The translations under genes and the position numbers were made by a program. DNA of 64,000 nt from Escherichia coli (lineage in GTDB: Bacteria > Pseudomonadota > Gammaproteobacteria > Enterobacterales > Enterobacteriaceae): assembly GCF_045037415.1 (NCBI RefSeq), contig NZ_CP173439.1. One strand, 5' to 3'. Below, one piece after another: positions 14,501-21,765 of the stretch. Positions within the stretch are counted from its first letter, which is position 1. Every line of letters begins with the position of its first letter. The notes beneath the pieces were generated by a model. It saw nothing but the letters and a program-made list of their open reading frames with translations, was not told the DNA's origin and searched no databases.

Positions 14501-16865
14501 ACACCGTCGCACTGTCACTGACGGAATGCCCGGGCGTTTCCACCCAGCCGTTCTCCAGCTTCAGTGCCGTGAACGGTGAATCAGCCACAGGCAGGGTGGC
14601 CGGTTCAGCCCGCCCCGGCACAACAACCGTCATCGCATCTTCACTGACGGATGCCACCTGCAGGCGGTCACCGCCGGAGACGCGGAGTCCGGGAATTTTC
14701 CCTGTCACCCTCAGTCGCTCGCCGTCTGCCACCGGCATTTTTTCCGGCCGGAACAGCGACCAGCTGCTGTCCAGGGAGGAAATACGCACCACCTGCGTTT
14801 CGCCCTGCGCATCCCGCAGGGTCAGGCTGTGACTCTGCGCCGTCACCCGGTCGATAACATAGCGGTCATGACTGCGTGTCTCCGGGTTCCACTGCTCCAT
14901 CACCATCCCCGGTCGGTACATATCCCGCAGATAACGGCTCCGGCTGTCCAGCCAGACCGGTGACAGGGCGGTCATGGTCACCTCCGGGTGTCCGAGCACG
15001 CCCTGTGTTTTCAGCTCACTGCGAATGGCCTGTGTCAGTATGGCCTGTTCCCGTACCCCGCTGACCTGTGCCACGCTCTCTTCTCCGGCTTTCACGCTGG
15101 CCGCAAAATCTCCGGCCAGCCGGGCATAGCGGACATTACGGTCCGGTTCACTGATGATGGTGGCCGGTCGCTGTTCTCCCCCCTGCCAGCGATATGTGTT
15201 CACCCCGGCATCCTTCATGGCCATCAGCGCACTGCCTGTACCGGTTCGCTGCCCGCTGTCGGTTATCAGGACCTGTACGTTATGACGTGCGGCACCGTCC
15301 AGCAGGGTTAACGTCTCTTTCAGGGAGAGTTTTTCGCCCTGGTCAACGATAACAGTACTGCCCGGTGTGAAGGCCATACCCTCCAGCAGCTGACGACGTC
15401 CGGTTATCAGCTCACTGGACAGCCGTTCATCCTGCTTCAGGTTCATCTGCGAACGACGGTCAGCAGCGATAATCTGCACCTCCCGCCCCTGCTCCCGGGC
15501 CATCATTGCCAGTTCAGCCACCCGCTCACGCTGCCCGGCTGCACCGCCCTGCCCGGACACAATGGCCAGCGACGGGCGATCCTGTGCCAGAACACTGACG
15601 GCATCGCTGTAACCGGCCGTCCGGGGGACACTTTTCTCCGGATGTACGGTCACCCGGTTCTGTTTCATGATGTCACGACTGAGTGCCCGGACTGACAGCT
15701 CATCGAGCACATGAATCCCGGACGTGAACAGCCCCTTCTCACGATCGAGGGGGATAAGCTGCTCACGGCTGATGGCCTCATCGATACCGGCGCGTGCCCG
15801 TTCAATCACACCATTTTCCGGCGGCAGTATGCCGACCGTCCTGGCCAGCACGTCCGTGTACGTGAACTGCACTTTTCGTTCACTTAATCCGGCAATCGCC
15901 TGTGTCACCGCCTGCTGCACATCCGGCCCGTCCTGTGAAGCTGGCCCGGGCGCCTGCGTGCGGGTCTCCGCCCGTTGATCCGCCGCGTCACGATACGCCC
16001 GGATGTCGAACCCGGTTTCCTTCAGCGTCTGCATCCATTCAGCCATTCTGACTTCCGGATCGACGTGCTGTTTGGATTTACGCGTATCCAGTGCCGCCAC
16101 ATCCCGGGATTTCAGCGAGGCCCCTTCCCCGACGGCCTCCCTGATAGCCTGTGAACGACTGGAAAAGGCCTCCACCGGTACGCCCGGCATCTCCCACATA
16201 CCGTGCTTACCGACCACTTCGGTTTCATAGCCCAGCGCCTCAACGCGCTGACGTAACTCACTCTGATATATTTTCCCGAACGCAATCCGGTTCGCGAGCA
16301 CGTTCTCGGAAAATCCGGTTTTCCCCACTTTGTCACTGCTCAGTGTCTTCCACTCGCCGTTATGCTGCGTGACATTAGCCACCACCACATGCGTGTGTAA
16401 CTGTGGGTCCTGATCGCGACTGGTGTCATGGTTAAACAGTGCCATCACCAGATTACCGGTCAGCACCGTTTCTGACTGTCCGTCCGTCATCACCCGTGTG
16501 GAGGCCAGCGCCTCCACCTGACGGACAGCAAAATCCACAGCCTGGTTATGTGCATCAATAAGACGTTTATCCCCCCCGAGCATGGCCATCATGGAGACAC
16601 TTTTGGGGGCGGAGAAGGTCAGGTCGTAGCCGGGACGATGCTTATTACTGCCATCCTGCATGCGGCTTAAATCCGCCCCGTCCGGCAGCCTGCCCTCCAG
16701 AAGACGGGTAAAAACATCCTTATCGACGCTGCCCTGCAGCCCAAGCTGTTCAGCCCCCTGACCGGCCCAGCGTTCTCCCATGCTGCCCAGCACATAGTAA
16801 TTATCCTTGTCGGTGTAATAGTTTCCGGCACTGCCTGCCGATTTAACAACGCTGAAACTCAACAT
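11595..16865 (-). CDS. traI: TraI relaxase/helicase, full length
   Basis: 1756-aa ORF collinear with F/R100 TraI (N-terminal relaxase, helicase Walker A GYAGVGKTT); start codon overlaps the traD stop. Confidence 0.95.
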   Translation of the reverse strand: MLSFSVVKSAGSAGNYYTDKDNYYVLGSMGERWAGQGAEQLGLQGSVDKDVFTRLLEGRLPDGADLSRMQDGSNKHRPGYDLTFSAPKSVSMMAMLGGDKRLIDAHNQAVDFAVRQVEALASTRVMTDGQSETVLTGNLVMALFNHDTSRDQDPQLHTHVVVANVTQHNGEWKTLSSDKVGKTGFSENVLANRIAFGKIYQSELRQRVEALGYETEVVGKHGMWEMPGVPVEAFSSRSQAIREAVGEGASLKSRDVAALDTRKSKQHVDPEVRMAEWMQTLKETGFDIRAYRDAADQRAETRTQAPGPASQDGPDVQQAVTQAIAGLSERKVQFTYTDVLARTVGILPPENGVIERARAGIDEAISREQLIPLDREKGLFTSGIHVLDELSVRALSRDIMKQNRVTVHPEKSVPRTAGYSDAVSVLAQDRPSLAIVSGQGGAAGQRERVAELAMMAREQGREVQIIAADRRSQMNLKQDERLSSELITGRRQLLEGMAFTPGSTVIVDQGEKLSLKETLTLLDGAARHNVQVLITDSGQRTGTGSALMAMKDAGVNTYRWQGGEQRPATIISEPDRNVRYARLAGDFAASVKAGEESVAQVSGVREQAILTQAIRSELKTQGVLGHPEVTMTALSPVWLDSRSRYLRDMYRPGMVMEQWNPETRSHDRYVIDRVTAQSHSLTLRDAQGETQVVRISSLDSSWSLFRPEKMPVADGERLRVTGKIPGLRVSGGDRLQVASVSEDAMTVVVPGRAEPATLPVADSPFTALKLENGWVETPGHSVSDSATVFASVTQMAMDNATLNGLARSGRDVRLYSSLDETRTAEKLARHPSFTVVSEQIKARAGETSLETAISLQKTGLHTPAQQAIHLALPVLESKNLAFSMVDLLTEAKSFAAEGTGFTELGGEINAQIKRGDLLYVDVAKGYGTGLLVSRASYEAEKSILRHILEGKEAVTPLMERVPGELMETLTSGQRAATRMILETSDRFTVVQGYAGVGKTTQFRAVMSAVNMLPASERPRVVGLGPTHRAVGEMRSAGVDAQTLASFLHDTQLQQRSGETPDFSNTLFLLDESSMVGNTDMARAYALIAAGGGRAVASGDTDQLQAIAPGQPFRLQQTRSAADVVIMKEIVRQTPELREAVYSLINRDVERALSGLESVKPSQVPRQEGAWAPEHSVTEFSHSQEAKLAEAQQKAMQNGEAFPDVPMTLYEAIVRDYTGRTPEAREQTLIVTHLNEDRRVLNSMIHDAREKAGELGKEQVMVPVLNTANIRDGELRRLSTWETHRDALALVDNVYHRIAGISKDDGLITLEDAEGNTRLISPREAVAEGVTLYTPDTIRVGTGDRMRFTKSDRERGYVANSVWTVTAVSGDSVTLSDGQQTRVIRPGQERAEQHIDLAYAITAHGAQGASETFAIALEGTEGNRKLMAGFESAYVALSRMKQHVQVYTDNRQGWTDAINNAVQKGTAHDVLEPKPDREVMNAQRLFSTARELRDVAAGRAVLRQAGLAGGDSPARFIAPGRKYPQPYVALPAFDRNGKSAGIWLNPLTTDDGNGLRGFSGEGRVKGSGDAQFVALQGSRNGESLLADNMQDGVRIARDNPDSGVVVRIAGEGRPWNPGAITGGRVWGDIPDNSVQPGAGNGEPVTAEVLAQRQAEEAIRRETERRADEIVRKMAENKPDLPDGKTELAVRDIAGQERDRSAISERETALPESVLRESQREREAVREVARENLLQERLQQMERDMVRDLQKEKTLGGD

Positions 16866-20709: not shown

Positions 20710-21765
20710 TTCTGATCTTCCCGGACACCACGCATCCAGTCACGGATGGTAAAAGACTCACCGTTATGCTCAATCCCCTGCAGGTAACGGATGGCTTTCA
20801 CGTAGTTGGTCAGCACAGCACGGATGGAAATAGCCGTTTTCTCAATTTTCTCTTCCACCAGGTTGGCTGCCGGTGAATTACGCAGGAAGGTACGCAGTTT
20901 TTCAATTTTGATGGAAAGCAGTGTGTCCACCAGTTTGCTGTAGCTGCGGTTGGGGTCATTACGCATCAGGTACGCCGCTTCCGCAAAAATGGTACGTCCT
21001 GAACCCTGCCAGAACGGGTCCTCTTTTGTGCCCATAGGGATCAGCGTGTTCGCGGTATTATCAAAATCCGGCTGTGTCAGGCACTCCTTCCACAAATCCC
21101 ATGCGGCACAGCGGGCATCCAGCGGATTCAGGATTTTATCGATGGAGGGATCATAGTAACTTTTAACAAATTCCCCTGAACGGTCATAAATCACCACCAT
21201 ATCACCGCGCTGACGGGCGTAGTTGGCCAGACGACGGATAACCTCCGACTTACCGGCCCCGACCGTGCCGTGCAGACAGAAGTTCTGGATTTCGGAATCC
21301 CGGATAATCGGCAGGTCGCCAATCCGGATATCGGAGTCCTTGCCGTCTTTTTTCAGCATCCGGGCCACTTCTTTCGGGTTATCCGTCAGCTGACGCCCGC
21401 CGGTCACCTCATTTTCACTCTGCTGTTTCCCCTGATGCCCCAGAATCCAGGAGACAACAAAGAAGGTGATCAGGCAAATAACCAGGGCCACGACAGACGC
21501 CAGAACGAATGCAGACCATAGCTGCTCTCCGCACCAGATCATATATTTATCATGCAGTACCTGGGCAGCGTTCATCCGGAAGATTTTGCCGTAATACTGG
21601 ATCTCATAGACCGGCTGGGATTTTATTAAATCCCGCATGCCTTCCAGCGTGGTACACCACCAGTAAATACAGCCGTTGATAAACGTCTGCCAGCTTATTT
21701 TTACCCATAAGACCAGACCAATGAGGATCCAGAAAAAAATAAACAGGCAGTAAAGCATGATATTG
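20710..21765 (-). pseudogene. traD: traD, 5' fragment (N-terminal transmembrane/ATPase part)
   Basis: Translation [18 protein letters not shown]…GVREDQK matches F TraD residues about 28-375 including Walker A GTVGAGKS. The first ~27 codons are displaced by the IS66-family terminus at 21766. Confidence 0.85.

What the first reader, a model, noticed from the sequence alone, without database searches (positions are those of the whole stretch)
16865..21765. Transfer operon reduced to traD fragments-traI-traX-finO; traD split by an IS66-family element with a perfect 8-bp TSD
traI (1756 aa), traX and finO are full-length, but traD is in pieces: its 3' part abuts one IS end and its 5' part the other, with TTCTGATC duplicated at both junctions (codons DQK of TraD), showing a simple, relatively recent transposition. 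The first about 27 codons and everything upstream of traD are replaced by an IS66 remnant and IS629. The plasmid should be non-conjugative, but an intact relaxase gene remains.
Basis: seen in the sequence. Interest (0 to 1): 0.35.

Follow-up and report, generated by a model that had tools for sequence, protein, structure and literature searches.

The report
Insertion sequence splits leftover traD gene
An E. coli F-type plasmid has lost almost all of its conjugation genes, and a common mobile element (ISCro1) later jumped into the already dead remnant of traD; this is ordinary plasmid decay.

Summary
A 2,699-bp IS66-family element (ISCro1; 18011-20709, minus strand, tnpA/B/C intact) sits inside traD. 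It is flanked by a perfect 8-bp duplication, TTCTGATC (18003-18010 and 20710-20717). Excising 18011-20717 restores one open TraD frame of 730 codons, matching F TraD residues 27-717. A natural empty site exists: plasmid CP077244.1 carries the same traD remnant uninterrupted, with a single TTCTGATC.

The traD 5' end is cut at 21765/21766 (F codon 26). It abuts the terminus of a different IS66-family remnant (21766-22132), which IS629 (22133-23443) truncates in turn. Six PLSDB plasmids share this exact truncation without ISCro1. The deletion therefore came first, and ISCro1 later hit an already dead gene.

traI (1,756 aa, catalytic residues conserved), traX and finO are full-length.

No F-type oriT and no traM-traT genes occur in the 64-kb window or in two complete relatives. 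Remnants reduced to traI-traX-finO are already described in the literature.

Verdict: a real, well-read feature, but ordinary and of low interest.

The parts
9247..9807 (-). finO, full length (186 aa)
   Evidence: NCBIfam NF010317 FinO, 361 bits, residues 1-186 on profile 1-186. Only about 94% nt identity to relatives, against about 98% for traI.
9910..10770 (-). 286-aa alpha/beta-hydrolase gene between traX and finO (UilS-family lactonase model).
   Evidence: NCBIfam NF047920, 508.9 bits (cutoff 400), residues 2-286 on profile 1-285. The segment 9808-10818 has no match in L001 or L004-L009.
10829..11575 (-). traX, full length (248 aa)
   Evidence: NCBIfam NF010260 TraX, 539 bits, residues 1-248 on profile 1-248.
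11595..16865 (-). traI relaxase/helicase, full length (1,756 aa)
   Evidence: NCBIfam NF010263, 3,322 bits, residues 1-1756. 1,694/1,756 residues identical to F TraI without gaps. Y16, Y17, D81, H146, H157 and H159 are conserved.
16865..18010 (-). traD 3' fragment (F residues about 376-717, with an expanded PQQ repeat), ending in TSD copy 1 at 18003-18010
   Evidence: tblastn with F TraD residues 376-717. NCBIfam TraD profile positions 397-646. 100% identical to L004, L007 and L008 over 17207/17252-18010.
18011..20709 (-). ISCro1 (IS66 family), 2,699 bp: tnpC 18041-19612, tnpB 19632-19979, tnpA 19979-20656
   Evidence: NCBIfam IS66 TnpA, TnpB and transposase models. 99.93% identical to the RefSeq-annotated ISCro1 copy in NZ_CP062880.1. 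Termini agree with two independent copies. A published ISCro1 is 2,699 bp with an 8-bp TSD (PMC12115866).
20710..21765 (-). traD 5' fragment (F residues about 26-378), beginning with TSD copy 2 at 20710-20717
   Evidence: tblastn and blastn against F traD from nt 77. NCBIfam TraD profile positions 29-378.
21766..22132 (+). Remnant of a second, different IS66-family element: its terminus GTAAGCGTAAAGCC plus the 5' part of tnpA
   Evidence: Sequence read directly. NCBIfam IS66 TnpA hits on 21851-22132. No other copy in the window.
22133..23443 (+). IS629 (IS3 family), 1,311 bp, no TSD; orfB is frameshifted by an extra T at 23003
   Evidence: 98.7% identical to the 3494-4803 copy. orfB is split into 194-aa and 149-aa ORFs. 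Indel relative to relatives. Flanks GCGC / GTCT.

Best explanation
This is the decayed distal end of an F-type transfer operon in a mosaic IncF E. coli plasmid, produced in at least two steps.

Step 1 is older and shared by the lineage. An IS66-family element sat in codon 26 of traD. IS-associated deletion or rearrangement removed everything upstream (oriT, traM through traT), and IS629 cut the IS66 element itself. That left traD(delta 5')-traI-traX-finO next to the RepFII replicon.

Step 2 is recent and specific to this plasmid. An intact ISCro1 transposed into the dead traD at codons 376-378, between the Walker A motif (192-199) and the Walker B-like FFCDE motif (422-426). It made the 8-bp duplication typical of its family.

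The ISCro1 insertion therefore had no effect on transfer ability, which was already lost. traI, traX and finO remain as intact open frames without a cognate oriT, coupling protein or pilus. At most they could act in trans.

Shown: the anatomy, the frame restoration, the empty site, the order of events, and the absence of oriT and other tra genes in the window and in relatives. Inferred: how the step-1 deletion happened, the non-conjugative phenotype, and whether traI/traX/finO are expressed.
For: - TSD and termini.
- Frame restoration.
- Empty site: CP077244.1 reads ...CAGCCGTTTTTCTGATC|TTCCCGGACACC with one copy of the 8-mer. It is identical to the excised window at 2,129 of 2,131 aligned bases, apart from a 63-bp PQQ-repeat length difference.
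- Order of events: six PLSDB plasmids match the traD-delta5'/IS66-remnant/IS629 junction in one piece at 98.1-99.8%. The five examined (L004, L005, L007, L008, L009) have no ISCro1 in traD.
- The traD::ISCro1 junctions have no contiguous match in PLSDB, and the left junction none in 5,426 E. coli genomes.
- IS629 at 22133 has no TSD, as expected at a rearrangement joint. The other IS629 copy has a 3-bp TSD, ATC.
- No F oriT nic site and no traM-traT by blastn, tblastn or fuzzy match in the window, CP077244.1 or NZ_CP069460.1.
- Published ISCro1: 2,699 bp with an 8-bp TSD (PMC12115866).
- Published remnants reduced to traI-traX-finO (PMC5102898; PMC6489325).
Against: - Only 64 kb of the replicon is visible. 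An oriT or a second transfer system could lie outside the window.
- No read-level data were available to exclude an assembly error. An artefact would not, however, create a TSD.
- The mechanism of the step-1 deletion is not recoverable from the sequence.
- traI is a mosaic: about 98.2% identical to relatives, while the flanking traD remnant is 100% identical. The remnant has therefore exchanged sequence with other F-like plasmids, and the lineage history is not strictly tree-like.
Confidence: 0.9

Rival explanations
1. ISCro1 was the original event that knocked out traD in a still-conjugative ancestor, and the 5' deletion came afterwards.
For: An IS insertion in a coupling-protein gene is a plausible first hit. 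The IS is co-oriented with traD.
Against: Six plasmids carry the identical 5' truncation junction with an uninterrupted traD remnant. The remnant is 100% identical on the 3' side of the site and differs by two SNPs on the 5' side. This scenario would need a scarless precise excision of ISCro1 in their common ancestor, which is far less parsimonious than a late insertion. No record with the IS in a full-length traD turned up.
Confidence: 0.04
2. The arrangement arose by homologous recombination between two ISCro1 copies on different molecules (cointegrate resolution), or by misassembly across a repeated IS, and not by simple transposition.
For: The plasmid family is a heavy mosaic with many IS copies. 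ISCro1-mediated plasmid fusion has been reported (PMC12115866). The window carries small indels relative to relatives, which could be assembly noise.
Against: Recombination or misassembly would join unrelated flanks. Here the two flanks are the exact adjacent halves of one gene, they share the same 8-bp duplication, and they reconstitute the contiguous sequence seen in CP077244.1. Only one ISCro1 copy is present in the window.
Confidence: 0.03
3. The retained traI-traX-lactonase-finO block is kept by selection for a function in trans. FinO could repress transfer of co-resident F-like plasmids, or TraI could act on an oriT elsewhere. On this view the block is not simply awaiting decay.
For: The 5.3-kb traI ORF is intact here and in four of six relatives. 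dN/dS among them is 0.12-0.20. finO and traX are intact in all but one or two relatives. FinO is known to act in trans (established knowledge; PMC5102898).
Against: The low dN/dS is equally explained by traI alleles imported through recombination from functional plasmids, given the patchy SNP distribution. traI is frameshifted in LR890663.1 and LR890264.1 and in Shigella pINV (PMC6489325). No promoter candidate was found on the minus strand upstream of traI (a weak test). This rival concerns the neighbours and does not change the reading of the traD::IS feature.
Confidence: 0.15

Closest known systems
ISCro1 (IS66 family), as annotated by RefSeq and described inserted in IncHI1 plasmid pT28R-1 (PMC12115866)
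   Same: Length is 2,699 bp. It has three co-directional ORFs (tnpA, tnpB, tnpC), ends of the GTAAGCG type and an 8-bp TSD. It is 99.8-99.9% identical to annotated copies.
   Different: Only the insertion site differs (traD codons 376-378). This junction was not found in PLSDB or RefSeq E. coli.
F-like plasmids reduced to traI-traX-finO: the small Shigella and E. coli O104:H4 plasmids in 'Five Shades of F' (PMC5102898), and Shigella pINV with truncated traD, traI, traX and finO (PMC6489325)
   Same: The tra region has suffered a massive deletion that leaves only the distal genes next to the replicon. The plasmids are predicted or shown to be non-transmissible.
   Different: Here 96% of traD survives (in two pieces), traI is intact, and an extra lactonase-like gene lies between traX and finO. 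The deletion endpoint is an IS66-family end cut by IS629.
Sister plasmids CP077244.1, CP077326.1, NZ_CP091758.1, NZ_CP069460.1, LR890264.1 and LR890663.1
   Same: They share the identical traD-delta5'/IS66-remnant/IS629 junction and the downstream integrase / ParAB / RepE backbone, at 98.1-99.8% identity.
   Different: They have no ISCro1 in traD and no lactonase gene. Their traI and finO alleles differ, at 98.2% and 87-95% identity.
F plasmid finO::IS3
   Same: A classic case of an IS inserted in a gene of the transfer region of an F-type plasmid (PMC5102898).
   Different: In F the insertion changes the phenotype by derepressing transfer. Here the target gene was already non-functional.

Membership tests
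IS66 family / ISCro1 | Three ORFs in the order tnpA-tnpB-tnpC, including the IS66-type (DDE) transposase | tested here: met
   NF038385 TnpA 295.8 bits, NF033819 TnpB 128.9 bits and NF033517 transposase 476.6 bits, all above cutoff.
IS66 family / ISCro1 | Imperfect terminal inverted repeats beginning GTAAGCG / GTAA.CG | tested here: met
   GTAAGCGACTCGTCAGAACCG against GTAACCGGCTCATTTAAACCG. Two other copies have the same termini.
IS66 family / ISCro1 | 8-bp target-site duplication | tested here: met
   TTCTGATC on both sides. CP077244.1 carries a single copy at the empty site.
IS66 family / ISCro1 | Near-identity and equal length to the named element (2,699 bp) | tested here: met
   2 mismatches in 2,701 aligned bases against the RefSeq 'ISCro1 family' copy in NZ_CP062880.1. 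Length of 2,699 bp as in PMC12115866. The ISfinder reference itself could not be consulted.
F-type TraD coupling protein (functional gene) | A continuous ORF with the N-terminal membrane anchor, Walker A and B motifs, and the C-terminal TraM-binding tail | tested here: not met
   The gene lacks codons 1-25/26 and is split at codons 376-378. Neither fragment reaches the NCBIfam cutoff: 831 and 704 bits against 1,221. It is a pseudogene.
MOBF relaxase/helicase TraI (F-type) | Full-length protein with catalytic Tyr16/17 and the His triad | tested here: met
   1,756 aa, NF010263 3,322 bits. Y16, Y17, D81, H146, H157 and H159 are conserved. Activity and expression were not tested.
Self-transmissible F-like plasmid | oriT, relaxosome genes traM/traY, pilus and T4SS genes traA-traG, and traD | tested here: not met
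   None of these was found in the 64-kb window or in the complete relatives CP077244.1 and NZ_CP069460.1. The rest of this replicon was not available.
IS629 (IS3 family) | About 1,310 bp, TGAACCGCCCCGGG ends, orfA/orfB with a programmed frameshift, and a 3-4 bp TSD | tested here: inconclusive
   Ends and orfA are present. The copy is 98.7% identical to the intact copy at 3494-4803. It has no TSD, and an extra T at 23003 breaks orfB. It is a member by sequence but probably a defective copy.

The most novel reading that the evidence does not exclude
The traI-traX-lactonase-finO block may be a selectively retained trans-acting module in a lineage of oriT-less IncF plasmids. FinO could silence conjugation of co-resident F-like plasmids, and the UilS-like lactonase could quench acyl-homoserine-lactone signals. 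The block's mosaic traI alleles would then reflect repeated recombinational 'repair' from incoming conjugative plasmids.
Probability: 0.1. Interest if true: 0.4.

Novelty: already known. Interest (0 to 1): 0.1.

Why it matters
The feature matters mainly for annotation and typing.

- **Annotation.** traD here should be recorded as one pseudogene interrupted by ISCro1, not as two genes.
- **Mobility typing.** A relaxase-based predictor will over-call this plasmid. PLSDB/MOB-suite lists the oriT-less sister plasmids as 'conjugative'.
- **Epidemiology.** The unique traD::ISCro1 junction and the shared traD-delta5'/IS66/IS629 junction are handy lineage markers for this IncF family.

Biologically it adds one more example of the well-documented IS-driven decay of transfer regions in F-like plasmids.

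Tried and rejected
- **Exact junction elsewhere.** I searched both traD::ISCro1 junctions in PLSDB and the left junction in 5,426 complete E. coli genomes. No contiguous match was found. Apparent 100%-coverage hits were two separate pieces.
- **Apparent shared insertions.** The first 7-kb search suggested that many plasmids share the arrangement at 82% coverage. Inspection of NZ_CP062880.1 and pEntH10407 showed an intact traD with ISCro1 merely nearby.
- **oriT.** I searched by blastn against F, by IUPAC pattern with 3 mismatches and by fuzzy match with 4 substitutions. Nothing was found.
- **Selection on traI.** I used dN/dS to ask whether traI is under selection in the truncated lineage. The values are low (0.12-0.20). 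They are uninformative, because the SNPs are patchy in a way that points to recombination.
- **Promoters.** The promoter scan upstream of traI found no minus-strand candidate. It is a weak consensus tool and no conclusion was drawn.
- **Literature.** The search for 'orf286' found nothing. Equating 9910-10770 with R100/R6-5 orf286 rests on my memory only.
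Full report
**1. Checking the observation**

The 8-mer TTCTGATC occurs at 18003-18010 and 20710-20717, and once more far away at 55210. Three copies against 2.26 expected is unremarkable. What matters is position.

The 2,699 bp between the first two copies begin GTAAGCGACTCG and end GAGCCGGTTAC. Two independent copies of the same element, in NZ_CP062880.1 and pEntH10407, end at exactly these bases with unrelated flanks. The 8-mer therefore abuts both true termini, which has a chance probability of about 1.5e-5.

The element carries three co-directional minus-strand ORFs. 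Each matches an IS66-family NCBIfam model above cutoff: TnpA 225 aa, TnpB 115 aa and the transposase 523 aa. It is 99.93% identical to a copy RefSeq names 'ISCro1 family'. A published ISCro1 insertion is likewise 2,699 bp with an 8-bp duplication (PMC12115866).

**2.

Removing 18011-20717 yields one open frame of 730 codons ending in ...[10 protein letters not shown]. It aligns with F TraD residues 27-717. The only length change lies in the PQQ repeat tract.

The duplicated bases encode D376-Q377-K378. That places the insertion between the Walker A motif (192-199) and the Walker B-like FFCDE motif (422-426).

A natural empty site also exists. CP077244.1 reads ...CAGCCGTTTTTCTGATC|TTCCCGGACACC... 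with a single copy of the 8-mer. It matches the in-silico-excised window at 2,129 of 2,131 aligned bases, apart from a 63-bp repeat-length difference.

**3. The 5' end of traD**

Homology to F traD begins at nt 77, codon 26. On the plus strand the traD sequence ends at 21765. GTAAGCGTAAAGCC follows directly. This is an IS66-type terminus followed by the first 94 codons of a TnpA-like ORF. The remnant differs from ISCro1 and from the other IS66-family element in the window.

At 22133 the remnant is cut by IS629. This copy is 1,311 bp and 98.7% identical to the copy at 3494-4803. It has no target duplication, whereas the other copy has ATC on both sides. That fits its position at a rearrangement joint. 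An extra T at 23003 splits its orfB.

**4. Order of events**

A 1-kb probe across traD-delta5'/IS66-remnant/IS629 finds six PLSDB plasmids with a single-piece, 100%-coverage match at 98.1-99.8% identity. In the five I fetched, the traD remnant is uninterrupted. It is 98.4-100% identical to the window on the 3' side of the insertion site, and 100% in three of the five.

By contrast, the traD::ISCro1 junctions have no contiguous match in 72,556 PLSDB plasmids, and the left junction none in 5,426 complete E. coli genomes.

The truncation is therefore ancestral to a lineage. The ISCro1 insertion is a later event, private to this plasmid, into a gene that was already dead. It did not cause the loss of transfer.

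**5. The remaining genes**

- traI (11595-16865), traX (10829-11575) and finO (9247-9807) match their models end to end.
- TraI is 1,694/1,756 identical to F TraI without gaps and keeps Y16, Y17, D81, H146, H157 and H159.
- A 286-aa ORF lies between traX and finO at 9910-10770. It matches the UilS-family acyl-homoserine lactonase model over its full length (508.9 bits against a cutoff of 400). The relatives lack it, and in them finO directly follows traX. From memory, R100/R6-5 carry an 'orf286' at this position. I could not confirm this in the paper library.

**6. Transfer capacity**

Three searches found no oriT and no traM-traT in the window: blastn and tblastn with the F oriT-to-traX region, and mismatch-tolerant searches for the nic site. 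The same holds for the complete relatives CP077244.1 (92.7 kb) and NZ_CP069460.1 (36.5 kb).

Only 64 kb of this replicon is visible, so 'non-conjugative' remains an inference for the whole plasmid.

**7. Is the intact traI meaningful?**

The traI body differs from its relatives at about 1.8% of sites in a patchy pattern. From about 16500 through the traD remnant and on to 26000 the sequences are almost identical. This indicates allelic exchange with other F-like plasmids.

dN/dS among lineage members is 0.12-0.20, the same as against F. Selection and imported variation therefore cannot be told apart. Two relatives have frameshifted traI, though these may be long-read assembly errors.

**8. Comparison with what is known**

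[quoted passage not shown] Shigella pINV carries a truncated traD, a frameshifted traI, traX and finO (PMC6489325). A large survey reports segmental deletion followed by pseudogenisation as the common route to loss of plasmid mobility (PMC11229322).

The feature is thus a correctly read but ordinary case of a known kind.

**9. Verdict**

The kind of feature is already known, and interest is low.

Noticed in passing
window 5369-7916: A second, different IS66-family element lies at 5377-7908 (2,532 bp, plus strand): tnpA 5462-5887, tnpB 5884-6234, tnpC 6265-7878. It has its own perfect 8-bp target duplication, GTTTATCT, at 5369-5376 and 7909-7916.
   Followed up: partly
window 9910-10770 (-): A 286-aa gene between traX and finO matches the NCBIfam UilS-family quorum-quenching acyl-homoserine lactonase model over its full length (508.9 bits). 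It is absent from the six sister plasmids. UilS is described in Serratia as a virulence-linked lactonase (PMC11633161). The role of this gene on an F-like plasmid was not examined.
   Followed up: partly
window 3494-4803 and 22133-23443: Two IS629 copies in inverted orientation bracket the whole tra remnant and could invert it by recombination. The first has a 3-bp TSD (ATC) and an intact orfB. The second has no TSD and a 1-bp insertion at 23003 that frameshifts orfB.
   Followed up: partly
window 36577-40688 (+): A lasso-peptide biosynthesis cluster: an asparagine-synthetase-like cyclase (498 aa), a B2 protease (227 aa) and an ABC exporter (574 aa). A candidate 62-aa precursor ORF lies at 36577-36765 (...KSTN/GTGGGSIIEGSYTVYRCDGG...). 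It has Thr at -2, a possible Gly1-Glu9 ring and two Cys. The gene order differs from what I recall for mcjABCD of microcin J25; this was not checked here.
   Followed up: partly
window 42297-44428 and 60848-62979: Two direct copies of an IS21-family element (2,132 bp, 99.86% identical) flank about 16 kb. That segment holds an IS91 transposase, a RepB/FIB-type replicon and a TonB-dependent haem receptor. The arrangement resembles a composite transposon.
   Followed up: no
window 17160-17271: The PQQ repeat tract of TraD is 21 codons longer than in CP077244.1 and 42 residues longer than in F. This is a hypervariable tract even among near-identical remnants.
   Followed up: no
L004/L003/L011/L012 (CP077244.1) and L008/L010 (NZ_CP069460.1): PLSDB/MOB-suite types these sister plasmids as 'conjugative' (MOBF relaxase, MPF_Unknown). 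They contain no oriT, no traM-traT and only a truncated traD, so this is a systematic over-call driven by the orphan relaxase.
   Followed up: yes
window 26854-27975 (+): umuC is truncated at its 5' end: it matches profile positions 51-422 of 422. It sits next to three tyrosine-recombinase-like genes at 23540-26821.
   Followed up: no
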